This document shows positions 7,513 to 23,159 of a stretch of 64,000 bases of DNA, piece by piece. Source of the DNA: an uncultured bacterium (GTDB taxonomy: Bacteria; Babelota; Babeliae; Babelales; Vermiphilaceae). The DNA is taken from the NCBI GenBank assembly GCA_963707655.1, contig OY970172.1:608001-672000 (forward strand), in the 5' to 3' direction. Position numbers and translations under genes: made by a program. Below the pieces are notes generated by a model that was given only the letters and a program-made list of their open reading frames with translations, did no database searches and was not told the origin of the DNA. Position 1 is the first letter of the stretch. Every line of letters begins with the position of its first letter.

Positions 7513-9669
7513 ATGCATAGCCAAGCACACGTAAGCAAAGAGCATCAGTCTCTTATCAAAAAAATAATCATGATTTTTGGTATCGTTGGATTTTGTTTTT
7601 TTCTTTTTTTTACCACTAATTTTTTTAGGGTAAGACAACAGATCAGTAATGACGCGTATGCGCGCGCGGAACAGAAAAACAAAGCAATAGCTGATTATAT
7701 CTCAAAAAACATTGCGCAACTCAATCCATTGGTCCTTTCGCTCAAGCAACAAATAGAGCGCGATGGAGCCAATCAATCGGCTATTATTGAATATTTACAA
7801 AAAAAACCGGTAGAAGTAAGCGGCTTGGGAGTTATTGTTAATTCACCGTGGTACGCCCCTTATTACGGCGAACATGAAGACAAGCAGGTTTTACAGAATC
7901 TGCCGCAATCAATAATGCATACCGATTGGTATAAGCAGGCAATGGCTGAAAAGAAAGAAATTTCAGGACTTTTTTTTGATGAAGAAACTAACCAGCCAAT
8001 TTTTTATACCATAGCTCCGTTTTACCTCAAGGCAAACCCGCAACAGCCAGCCGGCATTGTTTTTGCCACTCAATCAATGGCACATATACGCCACATTCTC
8101 TCTACGCTTTATACTGATAACACCGGTTACTGTTTTTTACTTGACCAACAAGGTGCTATTCTTGCTCATCCGGAAAACTTTTGGGTACGTACCAAACAAA
8201 CTATCATAGAGCTGGCAAACAAAGTAAACAATCAAAAATTGATCAGCAAAGCAGAATCAGCGCGAAGCAGCGGCTCTTCTTTTATGCATTATCACAATGA
8301 AATGACTGGCGACCGCTCATGGCTTTTTTTCACCAAAATTCCTGCAACCAATTGGCTTCTTGCCAGCGTTGTTGACATGCGCGAGCTACCATTGAGCGGA
8401 GATTTTTTACGCCATAATCTTCTGTTGATTACCATCAGCTTTATTGTGATGCTGCTGTGCGCTCTTTTATTGCTTCCCCCGCTATATAAACATCCCCATC
8501 ACATCCTGCTTTGGATCATCAGCGGAGCGGTCAGCATGCTCTTTGTCTTGGGCATTGCCAGTGCGTGGATTCTTTCTATTCAATTTCCCCGCACTGAAAA
8601 AGATGCTCTTGCTATTGAGAACAAAGCGCAATTATACAAGCTCTTGGATACATTTGAAGAGGCGTACAAAGGAAAACTTGATGAAAAAAATATCGCACCT
8701 GAAAGTAATGATTATGCACAATTGTTGGCATACCGCTATAAAGACAAAAATTATGTACCAACCGGCATTATCATTAATGATATGCAATTTAACCCGCACG
8801 ATCAGATAGAATTTGTTGGCTTTATTTGGCAACGCTATTTTGATGGCATTCATGATTCTGTTGATCGTGGTTTTATTTTGCCTCAGGCAACGCACAAAAC
8901 AACTATTACTGAAATTGGCCGCACCAAACATGAAAAAGCCGAGACAATCATGTGGCAAGTGCAGGCGCAGTTAAATCAAAACTTGAGCTATAGCGCTTTC
9001 CCTTTTGATATAAAAAATATAAAAATTCAGATGCGCCACAAAGATTTTGAAAAAAATATTATTTTAGTACCGGATTTAGATGCGTATAAAATTATAAACC
9101 CTGCCGCACTGCCCGCCATTGGTCAGGATACTCATCTTGACGGTTGGCATCTTTTAAAGAGCTACTTTGATTATGAAATAGAAACCTATTTAACCAACTT
9201 TGGCCTCTACGGCTATGGTCCTTTTGGTATTTATGATGAAGCGCCGCTTTCCCAGGTTCCTGAATTGCGGCTCAATGTAGTGGCTCAGCGCTATTTATTG
9301 GATACAATCTTAACCGACCTTCTCGCCTTATGCGTGATTGCCGTTATTTTATTTGTTTTACTTCTTACCTATTTCTCTGAAAAGAAATTTGAATTTATTC
9401 TAGAAACATGCGCCGCCGCGTTTTTTAGCTCCGTATTTGCGCAAATTCAATTTAGAGCCAAGATTTTTTCACACGAATTTGTTTATTTTGAAATCTTCTA
9501 TTTTACGCTGTATCTCGCCATTATTTTGATTTTGATTACTACGTTGATTCATATGTTTAAAATGAACGTCCCTTTGATCCGCTACGATAGCAACATTATA
9601 ACCAAATTACTGTATTGGCCATTCATTCTGGGAGTTATCTGGAGTGTGACCATGGTGTATTTGTATTGA
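7513..9669 (+). CDS. Cache-domain-fused pentameric ligand-gated ion channel homologue
   Basis: TM, Cache-like region (PYY, DWYKQA, GYCFLLDQQGAILAHP, IPATNWLL), then YSAFPFD Pro-loop, LDGW, pre-M1 R and four C-terminal TMs. Confidence 0.8.
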   Translation: MHSQAHVSKEHQSLIKKIIMIFGIVGFCFFLFFTTNFFRVRQQISNDAYARAEQKNKAIADYISKNIAQLNPLVLSLKQQIERDGANQSAIIEYLQKKPVEVSGLGVIVNSPWYAPYYGEHEDKQVLQNLPQSIMHTDWYKQAMAEKKEISGLFFDEETNQPIFYTIAPFYLKANPQQPAGIVFATQSMAHIRHILSTLYTDNTGYCFLLDQQGAILAHPENFWVRTKQTIIELANKVNNQKLISKAESARSSGSSFMHYHNEMTGDRSWLFFTKIPATNWLLASVVDMRELPLSGDFLRHNLLLITISFIVMLLCALLLLPPLYKHPHHILLWIISGAVSMLFVLGIASAWILSIQFPRTEKDALAIENKAQLYKLLDTFEEAYKGKLDEKNIAPESNDYAQLLAYRYKDKNYVPTGIIINDMQFNPHDQIEFVGFIWQRYFDGIHDSVDRGFILPQATHKTTITEIGRTKHEKAETIMWQVQAQLNQNLSYSAFPFDIKNIKIQMRHKDFEKNIILVPDLDAYKIINPAALPAIGQDTHLDGWHLLKSYFDYEIETYLTNFGLYGYGPFGIYDEAPLSQVPELRLNVVAQRYLLDTILTDLLALCVIAVILFVLLLTYFSEKKFEFILETCAAAFFSSVFAQIQFRAKIFSHEFVYFEIFYFTLYLAIILILITTLIHMFKMNVPLIRYDSNIITKLLYWPFILGVIWSVTMVYLY

Positions 9670-9945
9670 AAAAAACGGAGAAGGATCTAATTCTACCCGC
9701 ATAGTTTGCGTTAAAAATTCAATTTTTTTGTCCGCCTGATCATCATAGGCTTTTCTATCCGCTATTGTTGCGATAGCAAATGCATGTAATGCTGGGTCAA
9801 TACCTTCATTGAATCTGGCGGCTATGAGCTGGCAATATTTTTTTAGAGATAATTGTGAAGCTTTTTCCAATAATGATTTGTCATCATCCATAGCATGAGC
9901 ATTTAAAATAGTTATGGCTACAAGGAGCAATAATTTATTTTTCAT
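9607..9945 (-). CDS. Hypothetical secreted protein
   Basis: MKNKLLLLVAITILNAHA-MDDD signal peptide; 3' end overlaps the convergent gene. Confidence 0.55.
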   Translation of the reverse strand: MKNKLLLLVAITILNAHAMDDDKSLLEKASQLSLKKYCQLIAARFNEGIDPALHAFAIATIADRKAYDDQADKKIEFLTQTMRVELDPSPFFSIQIHHGHTPDNSQNEWPIQ

Positions 9946-10095
9946 AAAAGCTCTTCCTAAAGAAAAACAATTGAAACAATCTCGTTTCAGATTGTACCTA
10001 TCTATGATAATTTTGAAAAGAAAACATGTGTTTCTTGAAGAAGTTATTCGGGAATAGGTCTCAAGCACTTGATAATGTATAAGCTATTGAAAATA

Positions 10096-10758
10096 CTATC
10101 TCGTGACACAATAACAGCTCAGAGCAGTGAGAATAGCCCCGGTCGCAATTGCCGCCGGTTCATAATATTTTTGCAATGATGGACTCAGTTGTTGTTTCAT
10201 AAGTTCTCCATCACAAGCTTTAGAGAATGGATACCATTGAGCTAAGTCATTTGCTATACTCCCCACACAAGCCGCACCAATTCCGCCCGCAATACAACCT
10301 GTTATAGATGAATTATTTGCATTACATTCTGCTGCACAATATTTTGTTGCCAGAGCTATCGCCAGGCCACTCGCAGCTCCGCACAGACCCCCGGCAGCAC
10401 CCACAATAAATTCTTTAATAGGGGTCTTATTTTGCGGAACTTTGTCAGCACAACACATCCCCCCATCCCAAAATGATTTATATATAGTCATCCAATTATT
10501 TTTATAAAGAATCGGTTGCTTGCTTTCATCATCCCCACCAATATAGATATGACTATCTATTCCATAACACCACTTAAAAGCAGCTGCATGACCCATTTCA
10601 TGACAAAAAATGGTGATTCCGAGAATGGGGAACACAGCTAGGGCTGCAACCCCGGCCATCAAGCCCAAGCCCTTGGTCGCATCAATTTTCATATTTTCTT
10701 GAATAGGCTGAACAGTGAAACCCATTAACAACGCACCAATTATTAATATTTTTTTCAT
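10096..10758 (-). CDS. M50-family (site-2) zinc metalloprotease-like protein
   Basis: HEMGH next to a TM segment, AAGG, and NDLAQWYP..CDG resembling NxxPxxxxDG. Confidence 0.7.
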   Translation of the reverse strand: MKKILIIGALLMGFTVQPIQENMKIDATKGLGLMAGVAALAVFPILGITIFCHEMGHAAAFKWCYGIDSHIYIGGDDESKQPILYKNNWMTIYKSFWDGGMCCADKVPQNKTPIKEFIVGAAGGLCGAASGLAIALATKYCAAECNANNSSITGCIAGGIGAACVGSIANDLAQWYPFSKACDGELMKQQLSPSLQKYYEPAAIATGAILTALSCYCVTR

Positions 10759-10987
10759 TTTAAACCCTTAATTAAAATTCTATTATGAATTTAATAATAA
10801 CATTTCCATTGCCCATGTCCAGGTTGGGATTAAGGGATTGATCTATTATTCTTCGCATAAAGACGGTGACAGGAGCAACTCTCATCATTTCATCCCCTCA
10901 TTTAAAGTAGGCAAAGAGCATGACATTGCTACAAAATTCATTTACATTAAAGTTTTAAAAGAAAAATTTATATTTTGAGGATACTTC

Positions 10988-11902
10988 ATGATGTATAACA
11001 ACCTCCTGCAAGCAATTGGCAATACTCCATTGGTGAAAGTTAATTTTGGTGGTCCCGGCACTATTTATGCAAAACTTGAATACTTAAATCCGGGTGGCAG
11101 TGTAAAAGATCGCTCTGCACTTTTTATGATTGAACATGCGGAAAAAAATGGCCTTCTAAAGCCTGGCGGCACGTTGATTGACGCTTCTTCCGGCAATCAA
11201 GGCATTGCAGTAGCCATGATTGGCGCACTCAAAGGATACAAAGTAATTATTACCGTATCTGAGAAGATCAGCAAAGAAAAAATGGATACACTCAGAGCCT
11301 ATGGCGCACAAGTAGTTGTGTGTCCGGCCACCGCTTTGATTGACGACGCGCAAAGCTATCATACCCAGGCAAAAGCACTCCATGAGCAAACCCCCAATTC
11401 ATTTATGCCTAATCAATATTACAATCCCGTAAATGCGGTAGCTCATTATAGCTTATTGGGGCCGGAAATTTGGCGTCAAACTGATGGCAAAATTACCCAT
11501 TTTTTTGCCGGCGCAGGGACAACAGGCACGGTAAGTGGTGTTGGCCGCTATCTTAAAGAACAAAATCCCGCTATCAAAGTCTTTGCCCTTGATTCAATTA
11601 ATTCATTCAGAGCTACCGGGGGCAACCCTAAACCCTACAAGCTTGAGGGGTTGGGGATGGATTTTGAAACGCCGGTGTTTAACCCAAAAGTTGTTGATGA
11701 AATTATCACCGTCTCAGATGATCATGCTATTGAAATGCTCTCAACCCTGGCGCGCAAACATGGTCTTTTGGTCGGGCCAAGCAGCGGTGCCGTAGCCTGG
11801 GCAGCTGCTCAAAAAGCAGCCCAATTGAAAGAAAATGACATCGCCGTCATGATCTTTGGTGATTCGGGCCGTGCATACCTTACCAAAGGATTTTATTCTT
11901 GA
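10988..11902 (+). CDS. cysK: Cysteine synthase / cystathionine beta-synthase family PLP enzyme
   Basis: IGNTPLV, AKLEYLNPGGSVKDR, SSGNQG, GTTGT, GPSSGA. Confidence 0.9.
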   Translation: MMYNNLLQAIGNTPLVKVNFGGPGTIYAKLEYLNPGGSVKDRSALFMIEHAEKNGLLKPGGTLIDASSGNQGIAVAMIGALKGYKVIITVSEKISKEKMDTLRAYGAQVVVCPATALIDDAQSYHTQAKALHEQTPNSFMPNQYYNPVNAVAHYSLLGPEIWRQTDGKITHFFAGAGTTGTVSGVGRYLKEQNPAIKVFALDSINSFRATGGNPKPYKLEGLGMDFETPVFNPKVVDEIITVSDDHAIEMLSTLARKHGLLVGPSSGAVAWAAAQKAAQLKENDIAVMIFGDSGRAYLTKGFYS

Positions 11903-12023
11903 TGGGTAAATAGGTTTTGCCACTTACCACCTCTGATTATTTTCAAGTTGAAAAAAATACATGAGCTGATATACTTATCATAAGTAACTTAATTAAATGG
12001 AGGTTATTATGAAAAACAAATTA
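11902..12023 (+). repeat. Duplicated promoter/RBS/leader block, copy 1 (copy 2 at ~12493-12615)
   Basis: Both copies read ATGGGTAAATAGGT...TTGAAA-16-TATACT...TAAGTA...AATGGAGG...ATGAAxAACAAATTA. Confidence 0.75.
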
Positions 12024-12476
12024 CTCTTATTGGGTTTAACCCTATTCACCGTTCCTGTTATGCAGGCAAATGTTTTTACCAGAGCATGTGCTACAATCTT
12101 GAAATCCGGTACCAAATTCACCTTTTTCGGTACTGCGGGATTAGTGGGCAGCCATTACCAGCTCTTGCTAGAAGCGAAAAATGATTTTTTATTCTACAAG
12201 ATGCATAATAGGCTAAACCAACATGAAGAAAGAATCTCATCATTAGAATATAGAGTGCAGCAACTAGAGACAGGAAAGCCTGCTCAGGTTGGGCAACCTA
12301 AACCACAAATTGCTGACAATAATATGGGCAAAAAATTCTGGCAATGGGGAGAATCCCTCGTGACCGAAGAAAATGTTGCACTCGTAACGGCAAACATAGA
12401 AGCAATAAAATATAGCGGCCAGAAATATGGGGAACGCTTCGTTGATGCAGTAACCCAAAGGCCAAAAAAATTATAA
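12009..12476 (+). CDS. Hypothetical secreted protein with short coiled coil
   Basis: GGAGG RBS; signal peptide MKNKLLLLGLTLFTVPVMQA. Confidence 0.7.
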   Translation: MKNKLLLLGLTLFTVPVMQANVFTRACATILKSGTKFTFFGTAGLVGSHYQLLLEAKNDFLFYKMHNRLNQHEERISSLEYRVQQLETGKPAQVGQPKPQIADNNMGKKFWQWGESLVTEENVALVTANIEAIKYSGQKYGERFVDAVTQRPKKL

Positions 12477-12492
12477 AAATCCTTTATCCTTA

Positions 12493-12615
12493 ATGGGTAA
12501 ATAGGTCGTGCTATGCCACTCTGCTTATTTCAAATTGAAAAAAATATGCGAATTGGTATACTTGCTATAAGTAGATTAATGATTAATGGAGGATCTAAAT
12601 ATGAATAACAAATTA
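12493..12615 (+). repeat. Duplicated promoter/RBS/leader block, copy 2
   Basis: See copy 1; TTGAAA at 12535, TATACT at 12557. Confidence 0.75.
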
Positions 12616-13248
12616 ATAACTATCCTTTTAGGATTAACCTTTTTACTCACCCCAAAAGCTGAAGCTATGGGCGGGGTAGCAGCGCGATATCTCTTAGGCG
12701 GCGGTGCCGCAGGAGCTGTCGGCGCAGGGTTACAATATGCGCTTAATAATTATTTGCCATTGCTCGCTCCTGCAGTACAAGCAGCAGCTCCGGCAGCAGC
12801 GCCAGTAATCAATGTTATGATGCCCGCAGCAGCGCCAATCGCAGCTTCAGGCTTTATGGCAAAAGTACTCGGTGGTGCCCTTGTTCCCCTAGCGTACGGA
12901 TGCTGGACATATAGAATGGAAATTGCGCTCGCCGCAACAGAACTAAAAAATAATGCGATCTTATGGTGGCACAATAACAGAATCACAGACTTGGAACGAA
13001 AAGCCAAAAACCAAGCTGACCAGATCGTAGAGCAAGAGGATAGGCTCGCGCAACAAGAAGCGCGCCAAGAAGAACAAGCGGTACAGATTGCTCAGCTCCG
13101 TGAAGATCATGAACAACTTAATAATAGAGTCGTGCAGTTGACTGCAGTGGTAAGTGAGGTTCAAGGACAAAATCCTGCCTGGTACCAAAGAATTAGACAA
13201 ATATTTAATCGCGTTGTAGGCAACAATAACCAAGCCCAACAAGTATAA
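12601..13248 (+). CDS. Hypothetical secreted Ala-rich/coiled-coil protein
   Basis: Signal peptide ending AEA-M; Ala/Gly-rich hydrophobic region; heptad-rich C-terminus. Confidence 0.75.
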   Translation: MNNKLITILLGLTFLLTPKAEAMGGVAARYLLGGGAAGAVGAGLQYALNNYLPLLAPAVQAAAPAAAPVINVMMPAAAPIAASGFMAKVLGGALVPLAYGCWTYRMEIALAATELKNNAILWWHNNRITDLERKAKNQADQIVEQEDRLAQQEARQEEQAVQIAQLREDHEQLNNRVVQLTAVVSEVQGQNPAWYQRIRQIFNRVVGNNNQAQQV

Positions 13249-13274
13249 ATACCTACCTCCTTAATTAATCAAGC

Positions 13275-13307
13275 AAAAAAGCTCGCCGTAAAAAAGCGAG
13301 CTTTTTT
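13275..13307. terminator. Bidirectional intrinsic terminator
   Basis: AAAAAAGCTCGC-9 nt-GCGAGCTTTTTT between convergent genes. Confidence 0.85.
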
Positions 13308-13350
13308 CTGTCCAAATTTTATAGAGCCTTGTTTTTTGGATGGGGCTTTC

Positions 13351-13818
13351 TTAATGCACTGTTTCTGCTGCGTCTATCAAATCAGCAATATCTTTTAGGT
13401 GGTTATTTTTTGCAATATCACGTGCCGTTTCACCATATTTATTTTTGATTGCCGTGTTTGCTCCTGCAGCTAAAAGCAGAGCAACAGTCTTTTTATGATG
13501 CTCTCTTGCTGCATCCATTAAAGGAGTGTAACCTTCCTTGGCATCTTGAGCGTCCATGGCACCACCAGCGATCAAAAGCAATTTAACTATTTCTGTATGC
13601 CCTTGCATTGCCGCATCATGCAATGGAATAAAGCCGCGCGCGTCGATTTTATTAACGTCCACTCCTGCTTTAATAAGCTCACGCACTTTTTCTACGCGAT
13701 TTTCAAATGCAGCGGTGTGCAATGCACTTATTTCTAATCCATCTGAATCAGCATGCTCTGCCCAACGAGTAAGTTTGCGCGCAGATATTGCCTGCCTTGA
13801 ATCATTTTTTCGCGACAT
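13351..13818 (-). CDS. Ankyrin repeat protein
   Basis: ALHTAA, GFIPLHDAA, GYTPLMDAA, GETARDIA. Confidence 0.93.
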   Translation of the reverse strand: MSRKNDSRQAISARKLTRWAEHADSDGLEISALHTAAFENRVEKVRELIKAGVDVNKIDARGFIPLHDAAMQGHTEIVKLLLIAGGAMDAQDAKEGYTPLMDAAREHHKKTVALLLAAGANTAIKNKYGETARDIAKNNHLKDIADLIDAAETVH

Positions 13819-13830
13819 AACACACTCTCG

Positions 13831-15268: not shown

Positions 15269-16855
15269 TTAAGCCTTATTATTCAACCTTTTTTTATCAA
15301 TTTTGCCCGTCGCCGTAAGCGGCAAAGATTCAGTAGTGCACACAAAAGAACGCGGTATTTTGTAGGGGGCCAAATTTTTTCTACACAACTCCTGTAGCTC
15401 TTGCTCTAAAGTGGGAGTTATTTCACGCACTTGTACATAGGCAACGGGAACTTGGCCAACCGCTTTATCTTCGCGCCCAATAACTGCCACACGTATCACT
15501 AAAGGGTGACTCATGATCACATTTTCAATCTCTTGGGGATAAATTTTTATTCCCTTGCTAGCAATAACATCTTTCAATCGCCCGGTAATAACTAAACGGT
15601 CCTGTTCGTCAAAATAGACCATATCACCGGTATTGAACCAGCCATCTCTCAATACCAATTCAGTTGCCTCCGGTGCATTATAATAGCCAAGCATAATATT
15701 ATCTCCCTTTACCCAGAGCTCTCCAATAGAACCGGCGGGTAATGGCTGGCCCTGCTCGTCTCTAACTTGAGCCTGAATGCCTACAACAAGGGGTCCCACG
15801 GTGGGCGCAGAAGCTGCTTCATCTTCCAGATGTGCTGATATTAAAGGAGAGGTCTCCGTTAATCCATAGCCACTACAAATCTTTCTGCGATAAACGAGCT
15901 CAAAACCGGCACAAATCTTGTCTTGCAATGCATCACCACCGGAAACAAAGTATTTGACCGAATCAAGTGGCGCATTTTTAAGCAAAACAAGCAAACCGTA
16001 TAATGCCGGAACACCCAAAAATATGGTTGGTTCATGGCGTAATCCTTCCAGCAAATAGCGGCGCTCAATACGCGGCACCACAATTACTGTTGAGCTGGTA
16101 AAAAATGCACCCCAAATGCACGCGAATTGTGCAAAGCTATGAAACAAGGGCAAAATACCGAGCAGGCGCTCACCCGGCAAAAGACCCAATTTTAAACGAG
16201 ATATACCTTGAATAACATTGGTTATCGCATTTTTCGAACTGATCATCACTCCTTTAGGAAAGCCAGTTGTTCCTGAAGTATAGAGCAGCGCAGCCATTTC
16301 ATCCGGCTCCAGATCGACAACTTCAAAAGAATCCGCTTCTTGTTCAGATGCCGCAGCGGGAAAATCTGTGAGCCTAATTAAAGGAAGATCAGAGGAATAA
16401 TTGTTGTCTTTCAGACGCGCATGCAACTCATCAGAAACAATCATAAGACGCGGTTGTGAATCGGCAATAATGTGCACAACTTCAGGCTCTGTTAAAAAAA
16501 CATTTAAAGGGGCAACCACCGCACCCAGTTGCGCAATGGCAAAATAAGCAACATAAAATTCAATTGAGTTTTCCCAAAAGAGCAGCACGCGATCTTTTTT
16601 CTGCACACCGCGCTCTTTTAAAAGCCTACTTAACGCCACTGAGCGCGCATAAAGATCATGATAGGAAATCGATTGACCCTTGTACACCAAAGCGATATGC
16701 GCTGGAGATAAAAATGCTGCTCGTTGCAATAAACGCCCAATAGAGAGCAACTTATTATTAAACAATGAAGCAGCATATAAAACATCAAACAACTGTTGCT
16801 CGGAAAGCCCCTCGTTAAGGACACTCGCATCGGGCATGGGAGGATATAGAGTCAT
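15269..16855 (-). CDS. fadD: Long-chain fatty acid-CoA ligase (AMP-binding)
   Basis: YTSGTTGFPKG, GYGLTE, WFNTGD, GKIDK. Confidence 0.88.
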   Translation of the reverse strand: MTLYPPMPDASVLNEGLSEQQLFDVLYAASLFNNKLLSIGRLLQRAAFLSPAHIALVYKGQSISYHDLYARSVALSRLLKERGVQKKDRVLLFWENSIEFYVAYFAIAQLGAVVAPLNVFLTEPEVVHIIADSQPRLMIVSDELHARLKDNNYSSDLPLIRLTDFPAAASEQEADSFEVVDLEPDEMAALLYTSGTTGFPKGVMISSKNAITNVIQGISRLKLGLLPGERLLGILPLFHSFAQFACIWGAFFTSSTVIVVPRIERRYLLEGLRHEPTIFLGVPALYGLLVLLKNAPLDSVKYFVSGGDALQDKICAGFELVYRRKICSGYGLTETSPLISAHLEDEAASAPTVGPLVVGIQAQVRDEQGQPLPAGSIGELWVKGDNIMLGYYNAPEATELVLRDGWFNTGDMVYFDEQDRLVITGRLKDVIASKGIKIYPQEIENVIMSHPLVIRVAVIGREDKAVGQVPVAYVQVREITPTLEQELQELCRKNLAPYKIPRSFVCTTESLPLTATGKIDKKRLNNKA

Positions 16856-16873
16856 TTTTTTACCGTTCCTTTT

Positions 16874-17059
16874 TTATTCTTCATATTCTATAACCTGCAC
16901 GGGACATCCTCGTGCAGCTTCTTTTATACTATCATTACAGCGAGCTATTGGCGCATCTTTTTTAACACGCGAAAGATCAGTCACTTCAAAAATTTCAGGC
17001 GCTATAAATTCACATAACCCACAGGTAATGCACCCCGGCTCTATGCTTACTTTTTTCAT
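16874..17059 (-). CDS. Single-cluster ferredoxin
   Basis: CITCGLCEFIAP...GCPVQVI. Confidence 0.88.
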   Translation of the reverse strand: MKKVSIEPGCITCGLCEFIAPEIFEVTDLSRVKKDAPIARCNDSIKEAARGCPVQVIEYEE

Positions 17060-17176
17060 GAAAAATTCCCTCGCGGCGATACTGTTTTTTATGTATACTA
17101 TAACAACAAAAAAGAGAAAAAAACATGACATAAAAACTCTACGTCATGTGTACCATTTATGATAAGGCTTTTAACC

Positions 17177-17824
17177 ATGACAGCATTAAAAAAAGGATTA
17201 TTGATCTCTATCGAAGGGATCGATGGATCGGGAAAAAGCACACTCGCTGCTGCTCTTGTTAAAACATTGTCATTGGCCGGTCTGCCAATACTATTAACCA
17301 AAGAACCGGGAGCTACGCAACTGGGCACTATCTTACGCGCACTCGTTCAAAAAAAAGAGATGCCTATTTGTTCAAAGGCTGAATATCTTTTATTTGCCGC
17401 TGACAGAGCGCAACATTTTGAACAGATAATTATTCCTGCGCTTGCGCAAGGCAAAATTATTATTTCAGATCGCATGGCCGATTCATCGCTCGTGTACCAG
17501 GGCTATGGACGCGGCCTTGAAAAAGAGATGATCACCACTATTAATAAATGGACAATGAATCACGTTGTTCCCGATCTGACCATTTATGTAAAAGTAACTG
17601 CACAAACGGCTTTTAAGCGCATTATACAAAGAAATGCGGAATTTACCTCATTTGAAAAAGAACAGACAGAGTTTATTGAACGGCTCATCATTGGTTTTGA
17701 TGAAATCTTTAAAGCACGCGCCAATACTCTCTGGTGCGATGGAGAGCAAGGGGCAGAACAAATTAGCAACCATGCAACGCAAAGTATTCTTTCATGGATT
17801 ACCAATCAACAACCAACGCCGTAG
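17177..17824 (+). CDS. tmk: Thymidylate kinase
   Basis: IEGIDGSGKST, KEPG, LLFAADRAQH, SDR..SS..YQG. Confidence 0.96.
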   Translation: MTALKKGLLISIEGIDGSGKSTLAAALVKTLSLAGLPILLTKEPGATQLGTILRALVQKKEMPICSKAEYLLFAADRAQHFEQIIIPALAQGKIIISDRMADSSLVYQGYGRGLEKEMITTINKWTMNHVVPDLTIYVKVTAQTAFKRIIQRNAEFTSFEKEQTEFIERLIIGFDEIFKARANTLWCDGEQGAEQISNHATQSILSWITNQQPTP

Positions 17825-18570
17825 CGCCAACGGCTACTCATCGAGTACCCGCTTATTTATGGCTGGGCAATCATGACTTTTTAGTGCAAAAAACAAAGAA
17901 TTTCTTGCGCGCTATGTTCTGCGCATCAGATGCATGCACCCTCTGCAGCGTATGCCGCAAAATTGAAGAAGAACAGCATCACGCGGCGCTCTGGCTCGCA
18001 CCGGAAAAAGAACTCTACACGCTTGAGCAGATAGAGCTCATACATAGCACCATTGCCTATAAGCTTGCTGATGGTGAACATTATTTTTTCATAGTACAAA
18101 AAGCTGACAGCCTTTCACCGCTTTGCGCCAACAGTCTGCTAAAATCTATTGAAGAACCCCCTGCCGGCTACCACTTCATCTTGCTTGCCGAGCGGGCTGA
18201 TATGATAGTACCCACCATACGTTCACGCTGCCAAACAGAAGCTCATTATGGCAATGCCGCACCGGCGATACATCCATTATTAAGATTTTTTTACTCGAGA
18301 GAGAATAATGATTCAATAGCTTTTTTGAAAGAAATTGAGAGTAACAAAATTGGCGAGCAGGAAAGCCTGCAATTGCTTGATGCTTTGTTATATTACTGGA
18401 TCGAAGAAGCAAAAAAAGCGATCATCAACAATCAGCGCAAAGAATATTTACACGCATGCACAGTGATCGAAACAATGAAACAAACATTTTTAAAACCGCC
18501 AATGCCCGGCAGCAGCAAGTTGTTTTGGAAGAATCTGTTTTTACAATTTCATACTGGTACCTGCAGCTAA
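17794..18570 (+). CDS. holB: DNA polymerase III delta' subunit
   Basis: Zn cluster C..ACTLCSVC, ANSLLKSIEEPP, PTIRSRC; follows tmk. Confidence 0.88.
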   Translation: MDYQSTTNAVAPTATHRVPAYLWLGNHDFLVQKTKNFLRAMFCASDACTLCSVCRKIEEEQHHAALWLAPEKELYTLEQIELIHSTIAYKLADGEHYFFIVQKADSLSPLCANSLLKSIEEPPAGYHFILLAERADMIVPTIRSRCQTEAHYGNAAPAIHPLLRFFYSRENNDSIAFLKEIESNKIGEQESLQLLDALLYYWIEEAKKAIINNQRKEYLHACTVIETMKQTFLKPPMPGSSKLFWKNLFLQFHTGTCS

Positions 18571-18589
18571 ACTCGGCAGCAATGCCCAT

Positions 18590-19168
18590 TCATTTCTTGG
18601 AAACCCACCGATTTCCGGCAATATAAAAACGCCACAGTTTATCTTGCGCTTTTGATATGCCAACGCGCTTAGAAGTGACCATCGTAAAATCTTGCTCCTG
18701 CGGGTGAGTAATCAGATACAACGGCCCGCGATGCGTGACATCGTGACCATATAATGCAGGCGTGATATCTAATGCTTCGCTCAATTTCCCCGGTCCGTTG
18801 GTCAAATTTTGAGCAACAGTAGTGCCGCGATAGTGTTGCATGATCTCGATTCCTTGCAAAGGCTCAAGAGCACGAATCAGTACCCCGCCAGCAGGAGTGC
18901 TGCTTTCACGCGCTACTAAATTTAAACAATAATGAGTATGAATGGTATAAATATACGCATGACCCGGCGCGCCAAATAATGCGCGATTGCGATTGGTTTG
19001 TTTATCAAAGGCGTGAGAAGCCTCATCGCCAAATTCATACGCTTCGGTTTCAACAATCATTCCCGTCACGCGCTGATCATTAATCACGCGTACTACTACT
19101 TTTCCCAACAATTCCTGGGCAACTTCAACGGTATTTCGTGCATAAAATGAGCGGGTAAGAATGGTCAT
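18590..19168 (-). CDS. mpg: DNA-3-methyladenine glycosylase (MPG/AAG family)
   Basis: VAQELLGK, IVETEAY, GVLIRALEP, LTNGPGKL, RVGI, WRFY. Confidence 0.93.
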   Translation of the reverse strand: MTILTRSFYARNTVEVAQELLGKVVVRVINDQRVTGMIVETEAYEFGDEASHAFDKQTNRNRALFGAPGHAYIYTIHTHYCLNLVARESSTPAGGVLIRALEPLQGIEIMQHYRGTTVAQNLTNGPGKLSEALDITPALYGHDVTHRGPLYLITHPQEQDFTMVTSKRVGISKAQDKLWRFYIAGNRWVSKK

Positions 19169-19287
19169 AAACTTCAGTAATTTTTAAAAAAATATCTGTG
19201 TTTTAGAAAAAATAGTGCTATTTTCTTGATAGATTACTATAGTACAATGAATAAAAAAGTGAAGCAAGCAAAAAAGGGGTAGCACGC

Positions 19288-20202
19288 ATGGAAGCACACT
19301 ATTCATCAAAAAAAAGATATATCATATTTATCTTGGCGCTCCTCATTCATGCCCTACTTGCTTTGATTTTATTTATGACTTTTTTTGAAAAAAAACTTGA
19401 TTGTTTGTTACCCACTCATCAGAATACCGATCTTGATTTAAAAAAAGATTGGGCCGCTCGTTTGCCCGCACCAATTTTATTTTATGACATGATCGATGAT
19501 CAACCCAGCATTGCGCAAAAAGAGCAGGAAAACTCTTCTGCTGCACCGATAGAAAAAGAAATAAAAGAAGAAATTGAGCAGGAAGAACATGTCGTGGCAC
19601 ACCACCAGCCTGACAAACTGGAGGCCCCTGAACATCGATTCCCCGCAATGGAAAAACCAAACACTCTCATTGAAAACGTGGCAATCAATGTTGATCAAGA
19701 GAAAAAAACAGCACCACGCGCACAACAACAAAAAGCTCGCGCTAAGAAAGTGCCGTCACAAAAAACAACAATGACTCTTGCCGATCTGACAAAAATGTAT
19801 AAAAAACAGCTCCAAGAGGTACCTATTGAAAACATGTTCCTGCAGGGAGTTCCTGATAAATTACCGCCGGACAAGCAAATTAGTTTTGAACGATACAAAA
19901 CAAAAATTAATAGCATTATTAATGATATGTATAAAATTTATAGGAATGAGATGGGACCGGTACCACCAAATCTTTCAGTCAAAGTCTATGTGGCAATGGA
20001 GCGCAAAGGAATTTTTAAAGATCTCTATCTGGCGACCTCCAGCGGTTATCCGCTCATTGATAAATGCGTGATGAAAATTTACCGGGAAGCAAGCGATCGC
20101 TTTCCGCCGATTCCTAAAGGGCTGGAAGAAGAGTTGTTCAAAGGCTTTATTATCTTACAAAGTGGTTATCGCACGTCGGGGGGCAACTGGTTGCCTTTTT
20201 GA
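19288..20202 (+). CDS. TonB/TolA-like periplasmic protein
   Basis: N-terminal TM ending in HAL, charged linker, C-terminal SSGYPLID...FPPIP. Confidence 0.65.
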   Translation: MEAHYSSKKRYIIFILALLIHALLALILFMTFFEKKLDCLLPTHQNTDLDLKKDWAARLPAPILFYDMIDDQPSIAQKEQENSSAAPIEKEIKEEIEQEEHVVAHHQPDKLEAPEHRFPAMEKPNTLIENVAINVDQEKKTAPRAQQQKARAKKVPSQKTTMTLADLTKMYKKQLQEVPIENMFLQGVPDKLPPDKQISFERYKTKINSIINDMYKIYRNEMGPVPPNLSVKVYVAMERKGIFKDLYLATSSGYPLIDKCVMKIYREASDRFPPIPKGLEEELFKGFIILQSGYRTSGGNWLPF

Positions 20203-20294
20203 AAAACTCACTTCAAATGTTGCTTTTCTTAAAATAAATTGGGTAGCCTCTGCCTATAAGCAAGACTAAATCAAAATCGGAAATTAAGAAAAGT

Positions 20295-21710
20295 ATGAAA
20301 TTACCGAAAATAACCAGAAAAAATATAACTATCGCGAGCAGCATCGTCATAGCAATTTGTGCTCTGGCACTTGCATACACCATATACGATTATATGACAA
20401 CGCATCACAAGCAAAAGGCAAGGCTCCATGAAACAAAAACATTTGTACCGCAAGCAGAAGCCCAATCAACGCAAGATTTAGCTATCATTTTGCAGAAAAA
20501 AATAATTCGCGCTTTGCTATTGGGGACTGCAATACTCTTTTTACTCAGCATCATGCTATCAAAAGCGTATACGGGCAATAGACATTCATTATGGTTTTTG
20601 GCTATTTTTTTCTCTCTGCTTTTGGCCGCTGACATTGTTGTTATCTGGTATTTCGAAGTACGATTGGCACGTTTAAAAATGCAAAGCAATATTGTAGAAA
20701 ACGACGCCGATGTAGAAAAATTTTTTGAGATACATAGGGCTCAAAACCCTAACATTTATGAAGGAAAATTTCATTACGTACCTATCGGATTTCTTTGGTA
20801 TTCAATAATACTCAATGAGAAGATTCAAGGGGACATTGGAGATGTGCATTTATATTCCTATCCCTGGATAACGTATGATCTTTCCACAGACAAAGAACTT
20901 AAAGAGAAGATCGATAAGAATATTAATGCCGGCGTTTTTATTAGCATGAACGCTATTAATGAAATAAGATGGGCTCTTTCCGGGATCACCCAAGGCAATA
21001 AATATGTATTGAATTGGCAAGAAGATATAGCTCTTCATACTGATTTCAATTACAGAAAATATCCTTTTGATCAGCAACAAATTATTATACGTTTTGAACA
21101 TTATGACTCGCTCACAAGAATTATGCTTCTTCCCGACTTTGAAGCATACAAGATGGCCACCACCAAATATCCCCCCATCGATAAAAATATCAACTTGTCG
21201 GGCTGGAAAATTACCAATGCCTATTTTTGTTATGTTTTAAGCAATTACTCAACCGATTTTGGCATAAAAAATTATTGGCAAGTTAAAAACTATCCCTTTC
21301 TAACATACATTATTCAAATTCAACGTAATTTTACCGAACCGCTCGTTACTGGACTGCTACCTATACTTATTATTCTTTTTATTATTTTTGCGAGTCTACT
21401 CATACTCTCAAAAGTAACGAGTCCAAAAGATACAATTAACGGTATTCTCGCGTTACTTTCAAGTCTTTTTTTCGCCAATTTGATTTCTTATCAAACCTTG
21501 CAAAATACTATATTGTCGCCCAGCATAACCTACTTTAAATTATTTTATATCATAACGTACGTTATTATTTTTGTTGCAACCACGAATTGCTTGCTCTACG
21601 TATATAAACCAAATTCGTTTCTACATTATGATAAAAATTTTATTTCACGATTACTCTACTGGCCCGTGGTTATGACAATTTTTTTTGTTATAACACTTAT
21701 CTTTTTTTAA
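20295..21710 (+). CDS. Pentameric ligand-gated ion channel homologue (Pro-loop), paralog 2
   Basis: DFNYRKYPFDQQ, LSGWKI, IQRNF...LLP, four C-terminal TMs. Confidence 0.8.
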   Translation: MKLPKITRKNITIASSIVIAICALALAYTIYDYMTTHHKQKARLHETKTFVPQAEAQSTQDLAIILQKKIIRALLLGTAILFLLSIMLSKAYTGNRHSLWFLAIFFSLLLAADIVVIWYFEVRLARLKMQSNIVENDADVEKFFEIHRAQNPNIYEGKFHYVPIGFLWYSIILNEKIQGDIGDVHLYSYPWITYDLSTDKELKEKIDKNINAGVFISMNAINEIRWALSGITQGNKYVLNWQEDIALHTDFNYRKYPFDQQQIIIRFEHYDSLTRIMLLPDFEAYKMATTKYPPIDKNINLSGWKITNAYFCYVLSNYSTDFGIKNYWQVKNYPFLTYIIQIQRNFTEPLVTGLLPILIILFIIFASLLILSKVTSPKDTINGILALLSSLFFANLISYQTLQNTILSPSITYFKLFYIITYVIIFVATTNCLLYVYKPNSFLHYDKNFISRLLYWPVVMTIFFVITLIFF

Positions 21711-21809
21711 ATTAAGAGGTTAAGAGTTGAGCTAAAATATTGCACGGTCCAGGATATAACTGAATAACATCAAACCAAAGTATAAACAAAGCGTAAAAAG
21801 GCTAACAAA

Positions 21810-23159
21810 ATGAAAAAATTAGGAAAAAATAAGCCTGCCACCCTCGCGATCGCTATTTTAACAGCATGTGCTGTTGGCATTTTTGGTTATCTATCCCATA
21901 GTTACATGAAGCTTTATAGCATTAAGCCAGTACCCCATACTTGGGTTAATATCGATCAGAAAAAAGATTTTGATCAACCGGAAATGTTGAGAAAAAAAAC
22001 GATTCAATGCATAACAATGATCATTATTGTTCTTGCCTTGTTTATCATTTTTTTGACTGCATTTCATAATTTTGAGCGGCTTTGGTTATGGATCGCTGCA
22101 ATATCTTTATCATGTTTATTATGTATCGGCATTATTTTAATCTGGCATTTGGAAATTAAAAAAACTGAATTCAAAATCGATTATAATGTGGTTGCTAATG
22201 ATGAGGATGTGAAAAATTTTTTTACTGCTCATAAAAAAGAAAATCCAAAAATATATGAGCCCGAAGCTCATTTTCTTCCTGTCGGCTTTCTTTTTTATTC
22301 GATTGAAATTAATGAGGAGCGAATCACTATTGGCAGCTATCCATGGCTAAAGAGAAATATGAAAAAAGATAGCGACATTCCCAATATTTTTATTGCAATG
22401 AATGCTACACAAGAAACAAAAACATGGACCGTAGACAATAGGCGCGTTGGTGATATTGAAGATGCATCTTGGCAGGAACAGTTGCAAATTGAAAGCCATT
22501 TCAACTATGCGAAATATCCCTTTGATCAGCAAGATATCGTCATCCGATTTGAGGAAGAAGAAACACTGAAAAAAACAATTCTATTGCCTGATTTCGGCGC
22601 ATATCTACCAGGTAACCCTTATCCGCCACTAGATCCCTCTTTTCACCTTGATGGCTGGACCATAAAAAATGCCTATTTTTTCTATGACTTATCTGATTAT
22701 TCAACCAATTTTGGTATAAAGGATTACTGGCAAGTTAAAAATTATCCCTTTCTTGGCTATGTCATCCGGGTACAACGCAATTTTTTTGAACCGCTTTTTT
22801 CCGGCTTGATACCAATAATTATTATTTTATTTATTACTTTTGCATGTCTATTATTATTGCCAAATCAGAAAGGGGCCGACATTCGACTCATTCTCGCGCT
22901 TTTATCAAGTTTGTTTTTTGCCAATGTTCTTTCTTACCAAAACTTACAAACAATGATACTCACCCCCGACATCACCTATCTCAAAAGTTTTTATATCATA
23001 GCATATGTCGTCATTTTTTTAGTGGCCGTCAATATCATACTGTATGTATACCGCGCCAATGAAGTGATTATTTATAAAAGCAATCTACTTGCACGGCTAT
23101 TGTATTGGCCCGTTGTTTTAAGCATTTTTTTTATAGCGACGCTTATCTTTTTTTATTGA
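21810..23159 (+). CDS. Pentameric ligand-gated ion channel homologue, paralog 3 (tandem duplicate)
   Basis: FNYAKYPFDQQ, LDGWTI, VQRNF..LIP; shares YWQVKNYPFL and RLLYWPVV with 20295. Confidence 0.8.
   Translation: MKKLGKNKPATLAIAILTACAVGIFGYLSHSYMKLYSIKPVPHTWVNIDQKKDFDQPEMLRKKTIQCITMIIIVLALFIIFLTAFHNFERLWLWIAAISLSCLLCIGIILIWHLEIKKTEFKIDYNVVANDEDVKNFFTAHKKENPKIYEPEAHFLPVGFLFYSIEINEERITIGSYPWLKRNMKKDSDIPNIFIAMNATQETKTWTVDNRRVGDIEDASWQEQLQIESHFNYAKYPFDQQDIVIRFEEEETLKKTILLPDFGAYLPGNPYPPLDPSFHLDGWTIKNAYFFYDLSDYSTNFGIKDYWQVKNYPFLGYVIRVQRNFFEPLFSGLIPIIIILFITFACLLLLPNQKGADIRLILALLSSLFFANVLSYQNLQTMILTPDITYLKSFYIIAYVVIFLVAVNIILYVYRANEVIIYKSNLLARLLYWPVVLSIFFIATLIFFY

What the first reader, a model, noticed from the sequence alone, without database searches (positions are those of the whole stretch)
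7513..23159. Three pentameric ligand-gated ion channel (Cys/Pro-loop) homologues, one with a Cache sensor
Seen: ORFs 7513, 20295 and 21810 all carry (F/Y)PFD, a GW motif, a pre-M1 Arg (QRY/QRN) and four C-terminal TMs ending LLYWP. 20295 reads DFNYRKYPFDQQ. Each also has N-terminal TMs. 7513 has a Cache-like periplasmic domain between them, while the tandem pair has only a short linker there. Established: these motifs define the pLGIC family (GLIC/ELIC and animal nicotinic/GABA receptors), and Cache-fused prokaryotic members exist. Inference: an expanded channel set that could form heteropentamers, with one sensor subunit and sensor-less partners, letting a host-dependent bacterium convert a host metabolite cue into ion flux.
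Basis: partly seen in the sequence, partly recalled or inferred. Interest (0 to 1): 0.85.

Follow-up and report, generated by a model that had tools for sequence, protein, structure and literature searches.

The report
Three divergent seven-helix pentameric-channel subunit genes
A small, probably host-dependent bacterium carries three genes for very divergent relatives of neurotransmitter-gated ion channels, each with three extra membrane helices at the front; one carries a Cache sensor domain and the neighbouring two lack it, most simply by loss.

Summary
ORFs 7513-9669, 20295-21710 and 21810-23159 are intact and carry the stated motifs. They are the only three copies in a 1.09 Mb genome.

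Pfam sees only dCache_1 in 7513 and no channel domain. A family profile matches GLIC at E 9e-9. AlphaFold models (pLDDT 80 and 86) align with whole GlyR, GABA-A and GLIC subunits at Z 17.6-19.1.

All three share an unusual layout: TM1, periplasmic insert, TM2-TM3 hairpin, beta-sandwich, M1-M4. This layout recurs across a large unannotated family: 1199 clusters at E<=1e-30, 0 of 50 recognised as channels by Pfam.

A tree puts 7513 in an all-Cache clade. The tandem pair lies in a Cache-less clade nested among Cache-bearing proteins. ORF 20295 aligns continuously with a Cache-bearing sister from just after its Cache domain.

A heteromer of the tandem pair stays open. Channel activity, ligand and stoichiometry are untested.

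Cache-fused pLGICs were predicted in 2005. The membrane hairpin and the Cache-less derivatives appeared in none of my literature searches.

The parts
7513..9669 (+). Cache-bearing seven-TM pLGIC-type subunit, 718 aa
   Evidence: ORF. AF2 model pLDDT 86.3, pTM 0.81. Residues 412-717 match GLIC 6zgd_A at Z 17.6, rmsd 3.1 A, 271 aligned.
7546..7632 (+). TM1 of 7513 (aa 12-40)
   Evidence: Hydropathy scan. Lies within the long helix 9-68 of the model.
7645..8400 (+). Periplasmic double-Cache domain of 7513 (aa 45-296)
   Evidence: Pfam dCache_1, E 8.7e-14, above cutoff. Z 17.0, rmsd 3.5 A, 241 aligned to sensor-kinase ectodomain 3lib_H; also H. pylori TlpA. The Arg of the amino-acid motif is replaced by Thr137.
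8401..8589 (+). TM2-TM3 hairpin of 7513 (aa 297-359), returning the chain to the periplasm
   Evidence: Hydropathy scan. Helices 296-319 and 330-357 in the model. Trp334 in TM3 is at least 90% conserved in 60 relatives.
8746..9291 (+). Beta-sandwich extracellular domain of 7513 (aa 412-593), with FPFD Pro-loop, GW and pre-M1 Arg593
9292..9669 (+). M1-M4 helix bundle of 7513 (aa 594-718). M2 (helix 623-650) carries Glu at inferred -2', 2' and 6', and Phe638 at 13'
   Evidence: Model helices. Alignment and GLIC-based register. The register is an inference.
20295..21710 (+). Cache-less seven-TM pLGIC-type subunit, 471 aa (P0001)
   Evidence: ORF. AF2 pLDDT 80.1, pTM 0.73. Foldseek E 1.2e-11 to GABA-A beta3. 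Z 19.1, rmsd 3.1 A, 284 aligned, residues 155-471 vs GlyR 9boz_B 32-419.
20319..20669 (+). TM1, short periplasmic linker and TM2-TM3 hairpin of 20295 (aa 9-125)
   Evidence: Hydropathy scan. Helices 5-47, 53-88 and 96-127. Residues 54-471 align continuously to residues 308-717 of Cache-bearing P0014.
20757..21326 (+). Beta-sandwich domain of 20295 (aa 155-344), with YPFD, GW and Arg344
21327..21710 (+). M1-M4 of 20295 (aa 345-471). Inferred pore face: Asn2', Ala6', Ser9', Phe13', Leu16'
21810..23159 (+). Second Cache-less seven-TM subunit, 449 aa (P0009), 99 nt downstream of 20295. Inferred pore face has Arg at 2'
   Evidence: ORF. 45% identical to 20295 over the full length, E 4e-127. TM layout. 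Own orthologue group of 5 rows, SH-aLRT 99. It was not folded on its own.

Best explanation
The three genes encode subunits of a very divergent clade of the pentameric ligand-gated ion channel (Pro-loop receptor) superfamily. Each subunit has the canonical periplasmic beta-sandwich and M1-M4 bundle. Ahead of that sits a module absent from characterised pLGICs: TM1, a periplasmic insert, and a TM2-TM3 hairpin that brings the chain back outside. In 7513 the insert is a double-Cache small-molecule sensor, laid out as in chemoreceptors and sensor kinases (TM, Cache, TM). In the tandem pair the insert is a roughly 30-residue helical stump; the most parsimonious history is loss of the Cache domain, followed by an old duplication. 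Shown here: homology, fold, topology logic, family size, the tree, and the position of the missing Cache relative to a sister protein. Inferred from the superfamily: each protein assembles as a pentamer around M2 and conducts ions. In 7513, ligand binding to Cache modulates gating. The Cache-less pair is gated through the conserved beta-sandwich or the TM module alone. The default assembly is homomeric, because most genomes of the phylum that have the family have one copy. The pore-lining charges differ between the three (Glu/Glu/Glu, Asn, Arg at the inner half), which suggests different ion preferences. That rests on an alignment register that could be off by a residue or a helical turn.
For: Fold: model of 20295 pLDDT 80.1, pTM 0.73. 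Foldseek gave at least 500 matches at E<=1e-3, the listed ones all pLGICs, best 1.2e-11. VIA-align gave Z>=8 for 1000 of 1000 chains; the top was Z 19.1, rmsd 3.1 A, 284 residues, covering 155-471 against a whole GlyR subunit. Model of 7513 pLDDT 86.3, pTM 0.81. It matches GLIC at Z 17.6 over 412-717 and a dCache ectodomain at Z 17.0 over 45-296. Sequence: the family profile matches GLIC 4il9_A at E 9.3e-9 over profile 307-504 / GLIC 102-277, from the Pro-loop to M3. YPFD aligns to GLIC YPFD and the pre-M1 Arg to GLIC's. NCBIfam LGIC_1 gives E 1.4e-6 on 20295. Topology: two TMs between Cache and the beta-sandwich put both on the same side. The layout recurs in the ~700 aa relatives listed. Family: 1199 clusters at E<=1e-30; 61 of 201 sampled genomes of the phylum. 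Cache loss: the pair lies in a 16-row all-short clade (SH-aLRT 100) inside a 26-row clade (97) that holds 8 Cache-length rows. 20295 and 21810 each have their own orthologue group, 6 rows (96) and 5 rows (99). 20295 residues 54-471 align to P0014 residues 308-717 at 36% identity, E 5e-65. Pore: Phe at inferred 13' in 74 of 76 rows; Asn2' in 6 of 6 rows of the 20295 group; Arg2' in 3 of 5 rows of the 21810 group.
Against: No curated channel model reaches its threshold. Pfam Neur_chan_LBD/memb gave no hit on the three ORFs at E<=1 or on 50 relatives at E<=1e-3. LGIC_1 scored 27.9 bits against a cutoff of 500. The position where canonical channels have the 9' Leu/Ile gate is Ser, Ala or Gly here (69 of 76 rows). 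The pore may therefore work differently, or the register is wrong. ORF 7513 lacks the family's conserved Cache motif W-x-E-P (I150, G152, L153, where 55, 43 and 54 of 60 relatives have W, E, P), so its pocket is atypical. Pentamer formation, ion conduction and ligand binding were not tested. The tree is unrooted, so loss versus gain of Cache rests on parsimony. ORF 21810 was not folded on its own.
Confidence: 0.75

Rival explanations
1. The two tandem Cache-less paralogues (20295 and 21810) form an obligate heteropentamer with each other, as alpha and beta subunits do in animal receptors.
For: They are adjacent (99 nt apart, same strand). They diverged long ago (45% identity), yet both orthologue groups are kept (6 and 5 rows). 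Both are found in the same-genus genome G169, and P0003 and P0011 share a longest-contig length of 19003. Their inferred pore residues differ systematically, Asn vs Arg/Thr at 2'.
Against: The pre-duplication relatives in the same short clade occur singly; G059 has 1 match. A homomer therefore looks like the ancestral state. In G169 the second gene of one pair is truncated to 302 aa. Two separate homomeric channels with different selectivity explain the same facts. No co-assembly evidence was obtained.
Confidence: 0.3
2. One reading: the Cache-bearing 7513 is the sensor subunit of a mixed pentamer whose other subunits are the sensor-less 20295 and 21810.
For: All three share the same seven-TM core and sit within 13 kb of each other. 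The same spacing is seen in the same-genus genome G169: contig 52 has the pair at 365-2670 and the Cache form at 15304-17010.
Against: ORF 7513 is only 24% identical to the pair and lies in a different clade with SH-aLRT 100. The pair's nearest Cache-bearing kin are other proteins. Cache-less forms are the sole copy in G059, G002, G170, G164 and G187. Most genomes with the family have only a Cache-bearing copy, so each type works alone elsewhere.
Confidence: 0.08
3. The proteins keep the pLGIC fold but no longer conduct ions. They would act as membrane receptors or scaffolds whose output is something other than ion flux.
For: The canonical 9' hydrophobic gate residue is replaced by Ser/Ala/Gly in 69 of 76 rows, and a Phe ring at inferred 13' is conserved in 74 of 76. 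This could be a permanently closed pore. No curated channel model recognises them.
Against: M2 keeps an amphipathic pattern, with polar or small residues on the inferred pore face. The Pro-loop Asp and the pre-M1 Arg are invariant. Tasneem et al. 2005 propose that charge pair as a universal feature possibly involved in gating (PMC549065, conclusions passage). No cytoplasmic output domain exists in the 449-471 aa forms.
Confidence: 0.1

Closest known systems
GLIC, ELIC and sTeLIC (characterised prokaryotic pLGICs)
   Same: Beta-sandwich plus M1-M4 subunit fold (Z 16-17.6 to 7513). Cys-less Pro-loop Y/F-P-F-D, GW and pre-M1 Arg align residue for residue with GLIC.
   Different: Those have a cleaved signal peptide and four TMs. 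These have three extra N-terminal TMs and, in 7513, a Cache domain. Sequence similarity is so low that Pfam's models miss them. The inferred 9' is Ser/Ala rather than Ile/Leu, and a conserved Phe sits at 13'.
MCP-N + Cache fused ART-LGICs predicted by Tasneem, Iyer, Jakobsson and Aravind 2005 (PMC549065; Methanosarcina, Cytophaga, Microbulbifer)
   Same: A Cache-type sensor N-terminal to a pLGIC core, read as a multi-ligand chemoreceptor channel (passages read).
   Different: The paper describes a signal peptide followed by extra domains and the LBD. The passages I read mention no membrane hairpin between Cache and LBD; the figure is not held. I could not test whether those proteins belong to this clade. 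Cache-less derivatives that keep the TM scaffold are not described there.
DeCLIC (Desulfofustis pLGIC with a soluble N-terminal domain)
   Same: A prokaryotic pLGIC with an accessory periplasmic domain ahead of the ligand-binding domain, thought to modulate gating (PMC12664993; abstract and discussion passages).
   Different: The DeCLIC NTD is two beta-rich lobes joined directly to the ECD, without intervening TMs. Here the accessory domain is a dCache flanked by TMs.
dCache_1 chemoreceptors and sensor kinases (for example mmHK1S-Z3 3lib, H. pylori TlpA, PctA)
   Same: TM1, long stalk helix, double PAS-like Cache, then TM2 (Z 17.0 to 3lib, 16.2 to TlpA. Pfam above cutoff).
   Different: The output is not a cytoplasmic kinase or MCP domain. 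It is a third TM and a periplasmic/transmembrane channel core. The amino-acid motif YxxxxRxWY...Y...D (PMC8915833) is not kept: Thr137 stands at the Arg position.
Heteromeric animal Cys-loop receptors (GABA-A, glycine and nicotinic receptors)
   Same: Best structural matches of the 20295 model (Z 18-19). Paralogous subunits encoded in one genome.
   Different: No Cys-loop disulfide, no large M3-M4 loop, extra N-terminal TMs. Heteromer formation is unproven here.

Membership tests
pLGIC / Pro-loop receptor superfamily | Extracellular beta-sandwich directly followed by a four-helix transmembrane bundle | tested here: met
   Models of 20295 and 7513. Whole-subunit alignments at Z 19.1 and 17.6. 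Foldseek E 1e-11. ORF 21810 by 45% identity to 20295.
pLGIC / Pro-loop receptor superfamily | Pro-loop motif (F/Y)-P-x-D in the beta6-beta7 loop | tested here: met
   YPFD, YPFD and FPFD. Pro and Asp invariant in 20 of 20. Aligned to GLIC YPFD.
pLGIC / Pro-loop receptor superfamily | Basic residue at the end of the ECD just before M1, partner of the Pro-loop Asp | tested here: met
   Arg344, Arg323 and Arg593. Invariant in A1 and A3, at least 90% in A2. Aligned to the GLIC pre-M1 Arg.
pLGIC / Pro-loop receptor superfamily | Significant sequence-profile similarity to characterised members | tested here: met
   Family profile vs GLIC: E 9.3e-9, 37.7 bits, over about 200 positions. A single-sequence phmmer search found nothing at E<=10.
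pLGIC / Pro-loop receptor superfamily | Pentameric assembly | not testable with these tools
   The complex tool takes at most 4 copies and 1000 residues, so no pentamer could be modelled.
pLGIC / Pro-loop receptor superfamily | M2-lined ion pore with a hydrophobic gate (9' Leu/Ile) and gated conduction | tested here: inconclusive
   The M2 helix is present. Inferred 9' is Ser/Ala/Gly in 69 of 76 rows and 13' is Phe in 74 of 76. The register is inferred. Conduction is not testable here.
Pfam Neur_chan_LBD (PF02931) / Neur_chan_memb (PF02932); NCBIfam LGIC_1 (NF033918) | Score at or above the curated cutoff | tested here: not met
   No Pfam hit at E<=1 on the three ORFs. 0 of 50 relatives at E<=1e-3. 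PF02931 found nothing in the genome at E<=10, but the control genomes were also silent. LGIC_1 scored 27.9 bits against a cutoff of 500.
dCache_1 (PF02743), for ORF 7513 only | Profile score above the gathering cutoff and a double PAS-like fold between two TMs | tested here: met
   52.1 bits against a cutoff of 45. Z 17.0 to 3lib_H over residues 45-296. TMs at 12-40 and 297-328.
dCache_1AA (amino-acid-binding subclass, Gumerov et al. 2022) | Motif Y-x4-R-x-W-Y ... Y ... D | tested here: not met
   W139 and Y140 are present, but the Arg position is Thr137. Arg is not among the six commonest residues of that column in 60 relatives. Motif definition from PMC8915833. The mapping of the C-terminal Asp (Thr186 here) is my inference.

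The most novel reading that the evidence does not exclude
In this family the Cache sensor may not talk to the channel through the extracellular domain, as accessory domains of known pLGICs are thought to. It may act within the membrane instead: ligand-driven movement of TM2, as in chemoreceptors and sensor kinases, would pass through the conserved TM2-TM3 hairpin packed against the M1-M4 bundle. That would be a coupling route not described for any pentameric channel. The Cache-less tandem pair would then be natural 'sensor-deleted' versions that keep the three-helix module as a built-in auxiliary subunit. They might form an alpha/beta-type heteropentamer with mixed Asn/Arg pore rings.
Probability: 0.2. 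Interest if true: 0.8.

Novelty: new variant of a known kind. Interest (0 to 1): 0.55.

Why it matters
Pentameric ligand-gated channels are among the best-studied drug targets, and a handful of bacterial members (GLIC, ELIC, DeCLIC) serve as structural models for them. This locus belongs to a much larger bacterial clade: 1199 clusters at 50% identity with E<=1e-30, in at least five phyla judging by source names. Standard annotation labels its members only "Cache domain-containing" or "hypothetical". Its subunits have seven, not four, membrane helices.

This one small genome offers a natural comparison: a Cache-bearing subunit and two Cache-less derivatives of the same scaffold. That makes two questions directly testable. 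How does an accessory sensor gate a pLGIC? What do the extra helices do? It would also give a first lead on how bacteria of this phylum, reported to depend on protist hosts (recalled), turn chemical cues into ion flux.

Tried and rejected
- **Single-sequence search:** phmmer of 20295 against PDB sequences found nothing at E<=10. Only the family profile worked.
- **Named loci:** I therefore could not fetch named loci, and could not test whether the 2005 Methanosarcina, Cytophaga and Microbulbifer proteins belong to this clade.
- **Complex prediction:** full-length 20295 + 21810 scored 0.06 and 0.08 against a mark of 0.32, and the controls were not run. This is no verdict, and counts neither for nor against binding.
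- **Pfam PF02931 on the whole genome:** no match, but the 14 control genomes were silent too, so it is uninformative.
- **ESM Atlas:** the nearest clusters are unnamed "hypothetical protein". One cluster at rank 20 (score 0.87) has Neur_chan_LBD on 11% of its members. This is a lead only.
- **Promoter and terminator scans:** counts around both loci were within the range of shuffled sequence, so nothing can be said about operons.
- **Literature searches with no relevant hit:**
  - [quoted passage not shown]: 0 papers.
  - "pLGIC + dCache": 0 papers.
  - [quoted passage not shown]: 2 unrelated papers.
  - "Dependentiae + ion channel": 6 papers held both terms, 5 were listed, none on this by title or abstract.
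- **Rejected reading, chance motif resemblance:** excluded by the E-values and the fold matches.
- **Rejected reading, recent duplication of 7513 followed by deletion:** excluded by 24% identity and the tree.
- **Model geometry:** I could not inspect model coordinates. Where TM1-TM3 sit relative to M1-M4, and the pore geometry, remain unknown.

Full report
**Observation.**
The three ORFs are real and intact on the + strand: 7513-9669 (718 aa), 20295-21710 (471 aa) and 21810-23159 (449 aa). In a 20-sequence family alignment the following are invariant: the Pro and Asp of (Y/F)PFD, the Trp of GW, the pre-M1 Arg and the WP of LLYWP.

A hydropathy scan finds three N-terminal TM segments in each protein, plus the C-terminal bundle. 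ORFs 20295 and 21810 are 45% identical over their full length (E 4e-127). The C-terminal 400 residues of 7513 are 24% identical to 20295 (E 2e-29). The window's genome is a single 1,091,075-base contig and holds exactly these three copies.

**Are they pLGIC homologues?**
Curated models say almost nothing:
- Pfam finds only dCache_1 in 7513 (residues 40-285, E 8.7e-14, 52.1 bits against a cutoff of 45) and no Neur_chan domain in any of the three at E<=1.
- NCBIfam LGIC_1 touches 20295 weakly (E 1.4e-6, 27.9 bits against a cutoff of 500).
- phmmer of 20295 against PDB sequences finds nothing.

A profile of the 20-sequence alignment does match GLIC. The match is 4il9_A at E 9.3e-9, profile positions 307-504 against GLIC 102-277, running from the Pro-loop through M3. 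YPFD lies on GLIC's YPFD, and the pre-M1 Arg lies on GLIC's. The profile's Cache part separately matches sensor-kinase ectodomains (3lib, E 1.4e-9).

The AlphaFold2 model of 20295 has pLDDT 80.1 and pTM 0.73. It shows three N-terminal helices (5-47, 53-88, 96-127), a beta-rich domain (160-344) and four C-terminal helices. Foldseek returns at least 500 PDB matches at E<=1e-3. Those listed are all pLGIC subunits, with GABA-A beta3 4cof_A at 1.2e-11 and GLIC 6f13_A at 9.1e-11. VIA-align scores all 1000 re-aligned chains at Z>=8. The best is Z 19.1, rmsd 3.1 A over 284 residues, with model residues 155-471 against GlyR 9boz_B residues 32-419, a whole subunit.

The model of 7513 has pLDDT 86.3 and pTM 0.81. 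It splits cleanly into two matches:
- Residues 412-717 against GLIC 6zgd_A residues 15-315 (Z 17.6, rmsd 3.1 A, 271 aligned).
- Residues 45-296 against the double-Cache ectodomain 3lib_H (Z 17.0, rmsd 3.5 A, 241 aligned), and also H. pylori TlpA.

ORF 21810 was not folded and rests on its 45% identity to 20295.

**Architecture.**
All three share one layout: cytoplasmic N-terminus, TM1, a periplasmic insert, a TM2-TM3 hairpin, the beta-sandwich, then M1-M4. Cache domains are extracytoplasmic and so is the pLGIC beta-sandwich (established knowledge). An even number of TMs between them is what the sequence shows, so the topology is self-consistent.

TM3 is not a passive anchor. Trp100 is invariant, and Ile114 and Trp118 are at least 90% conserved in the 20-row alignment. 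The matching Trp334 of 7513 is at least 90% conserved in 60 Cache-bearing relatives.

**The family.**
A full HMMER scan of 1.84 billion representatives with the profile gave 5533 proteins at E<=1e-3, 1922 at E<=1e-10 and 1199 at E<=1e-30. The profile includes part of the Cache domain, so the weaker hits may include Cache-only proteins. Of the 166 proteins held at that point, 127 were 650-749 aa and 17 were 400-499 aa.

In the 60 proteins printed by the hydropathy scan, nearly all of the ~700 aa ones show the same TM1, ~270-residue gap, two TMs, ~210-residue gap and C-terminal TM pattern.

Pfam on 50 relatives gave:
- 0 of 50 with any Neur_chan model at E<=1e-3.
- 45 of 50 with dCache_1.
- 5 of 50 with nothing.
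- Some with extra parts: TPR repeats (P0063), and C-terminal solute-binding domains (P0065, P0081, P0154).

The sources name these proteins "hypothetical protein", "Cache domain-containing protein", "Cache 3/Cache 2 fusion domain-containing protein" or "tetratricopeptide repeat protein". They come from Candidatus Dependentiae, Candidatus Nitronauta, Anaerolineae, Spirulina, another cyanobacterium and Desulfobacterales. None is called a channel. The ESM Atlas's nearest clusters are likewise unnamed.

**Distribution in the phylum.**
The closest named homologues are from Candidatus Dependentiae: P0005 at 62% to 20295 and P0173 at 71% to 7513. Assigning the window's genome to that phylum is therefore an inference. 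In 201 sampled genomes of the phylum, 61 have a match at E<=1e-10, and 43 of 66 in the window's own family do.

Most have one copy of Cache-bearing length. Some frames are about 1000 aa. Tandem Cache-bearing duplicates also occur (G036, G148). The same-genus genome G169 has the same set as the window, including a Cache form about 12.6 kb from a short pair on contig 52. It also has a further short pair on contig 24.

**Origin of the Cache-less pair.**
I built a tree of 76 rows on 400 columns from TM2 to the C-terminus (IQ-TREE quick search, LG+C20+F+G4, SH-aLRT support).

Rows left out:
- Duplicates of the window's own loci.
- Five fragments: 218, 302 and 495 aa pieces, and the two pieces of the G115 copy that carries in-frame TGA.
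- Three of every four representatives of 400-800 aa.

Results:
- ORF 7513 sits in a 9-row all-Cache clade (SH-aLRT 100) with same-family genomes.
- The pair sits in a 16-row clade of only short proteins (100), nested in a 26-row clade (97) that also holds 8 Cache-length proteins.
- Inside the short clade, 20295 (6 rows, 96) and 21810 (5 rows, 99) each have their own orthologue group, and the two groups are sisters (99).

The duplication therefore predates several species, and both copies have been retained. ORF 20295 residues 54-471 align without a break to residues 308-717 of the Cache-bearing P0014 (36% identity, E 5e-65). The alignment begins just after P0014's Cache region and just before its TM2 at 319-347. 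The short form is thus the long form minus roughly 270 residues between TM1 and TM2. In the model the two flanking helices protrude as a short stump (helices 5-47 and 53-88).

Other Cache-less lineages exist:
- L018 and L019 (405 and 367 aa, with two or one N-terminal TM).
- L016 and L017 (453 aa).
- L020 and L021 (542 and 554 aa, with a roughly 110-residue insert).

Six of the 28 "short" rows are probably fragments (P0015, L014, P0126, P0060, P0074, P0111). The tool's count of 9 label changes is therefore too high. The tree is unrooted, so "loss" is the parsimonious reading and not a proven one.

**Heteromer question.**
Five genomes of the phylum (G059, G002, G170, G164, G187; 94-98% complete) have a Cache-less form as their only match. 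Most others have only a Cache-bearing form. A heteromer of the tandem pair is not excluded: both copies have been retained for a long time, they are adjacent, and their inferred pore residues differ systematically.

**Pore.**
Taking the register from the profile-GLIC alignment, the inferred pore face is as follows:

| Position | 7513 | 20295 | 21810 |
|---|---|---|---|
| -2' | Glu | Lys | Gly |
| 2' | Glu | Asn | Arg |
| 6' | Glu | Ala | Ala |
| 9' | Ala | Ser | Ser |
| 13' | Phe | Phe | Phe |
| 16' | Val | Leu | Val |

ORF 20295 also has Asp at -1'.

For 7513 this register needs no indel between the pre-M1 Arg and 13' relative to GLIC: 45 residues in 7513, and 45 in GLIC by its standard residue numbering, which I recalled and did not take from a call.

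Across the 76 rows:
- Phe13' occurs in 74.
- 9' is Ser (40), Ala (23) or Gly (6).
- Asn2' holds in 6 of 6 rows of the 20295 group.
- Arg2' holds in 3 of 5 rows of the 21810 group.
- Glu2' and Glu-2' of 7513 are shared only with its same-genus orthologue, which has Gly at 6'.

Reading Glu rings as cation-selective and Arg as anion-favouring follows established pLGIC knowledge. Here it is an inference on an unverified register.

**Cache ligand.**
The published amino-acid motif of dCache_1 is YxxxxRxWY...Y...D (PMC8915833; passages read). ORF 7513 has Trp139-Tyr140 but Thr137 at the Arg position. Arg is not among the six commonest residues of that column in 60 relatives. ORF 7513 also departs from the family's W-x-E-P motif (I150, G152, L153). 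The ligand is unknown.

**Comparison with what is known.**
Tasneem et al. 2005 predicted bacterial and archaeal pLGICs fused to MCP-N and Cache domains and suggested a chemoreceptor role. They describe a signal peptide followed by the extra domains and mention no membrane hairpin in the passages I read (PMC549065). The figure is not held.

Jaiteh et al. 2016 does not mention Cache or N-terminal domains (PMC4795631; term search). Recent DeCLIC work calls the NTDs of prokaryotic pLGICs poorly understood and cites only Tasneem for their diversity (PMC12664993). My searches found no paper on extra N-terminal TMs, on dCache-pLGIC fusions, or on channels of Dependentiae. Subscription-only papers are outside that library.

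Earlier AI notes of this scan describe the same seven-TM Cache-channel family, and nine-TM double-Cache forms, in other genomes. They agree with my reading but are not independent evidence. None mentions Cache-less derivatives.

**Verdict.**
The specific heteropentamer idea is not supported.

What is known: the superfamily, and the idea of Cache fusion.

What appears undescribed in print, within my searches: the TM-flanked Cache plus hairpin giving a seven-TM subunit, the size of this unannotated clade, and the natural Cache-less tandem derivatives seen here.

Function (channel, ligand, stoichiometry) is inferred, not shown.

Noticed in passing
window 5481-7481: Directly upstream of 7513 (31 nt gap) lie an ATP-synt_A gene (5767-6534, E 1.7e-35) and a 316-aa ORF (6531-7481) with four ATP-synt_C stretches in one frame (E 3.1e-23). 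This looks like a concatenated c-subunit. A small membrane ORF with no Pfam hit precedes them (5481-5804). I saw no other F-type ATPase subunit genes among the ORFs listed up to 26.5 kb.
   Followed up: no
window 19288-20202 and 23242-26525: The tandem pair is flanked upstream by a protein with a TonB_2 C-terminal domain (E 2.8e-6). Downstream lie an ABC ATPase (E 1e-35) and three membrane ORFs, one of which hits ABC2_membrane. Whether these neighbours are conserved next to the pair in relatives was not checked.
   Followed up: no
L022 (G169:C52) 347-1255 and L023 (G169:C24): In the same-genus genome, the gene downstream of the 20295 orthologue is only 302 aa (N-terminal TMs plus part of the beta-domain, no M1-M4). 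A second contig holds another short pair: P0010 plus a partial upstream gene at the contig end. This could be a truncation, an assembly artefact or strain mixture.
   Followed up: partly
G115:C24:13691-15157 (L025): One family copy in another genome of the phylum has two in-frame TGA codons and splits into 371 and 245 aa pieces. It could be a pseudogene or recoding.
   Followed up: no
P0065, P0081, P0154, P0063 (relatives): Some family members carry solute-binding-protein domains after M4: Bmp plus ABC_sub_bind in two, SBP_bac_5 in one. If M4 ends outside, as in known pLGICs, these domains would be periplasmic. A Spirulina member has an N-terminal TPR array of about 350 residues.
   Followed up: partly
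table, genus g2 and others: Many genomes of the phylum (10 of 10 in genus g2) have the match inside open frames of about 1000-1070 aa. This fits earlier scan notes of double-Cache, nine-TM versions. I did not analyse them.
   Followed up: no
L018 (G164) and L019 (G187): Two members of 405 and 367 aa have only two or one N-terminal TM. They are close to the canonical four-TM-plus-signal layout, so the family spans a gradient from a Cache insert, through a 110-residue insert and a 30-residue stump, to none.
   Followed up: partly
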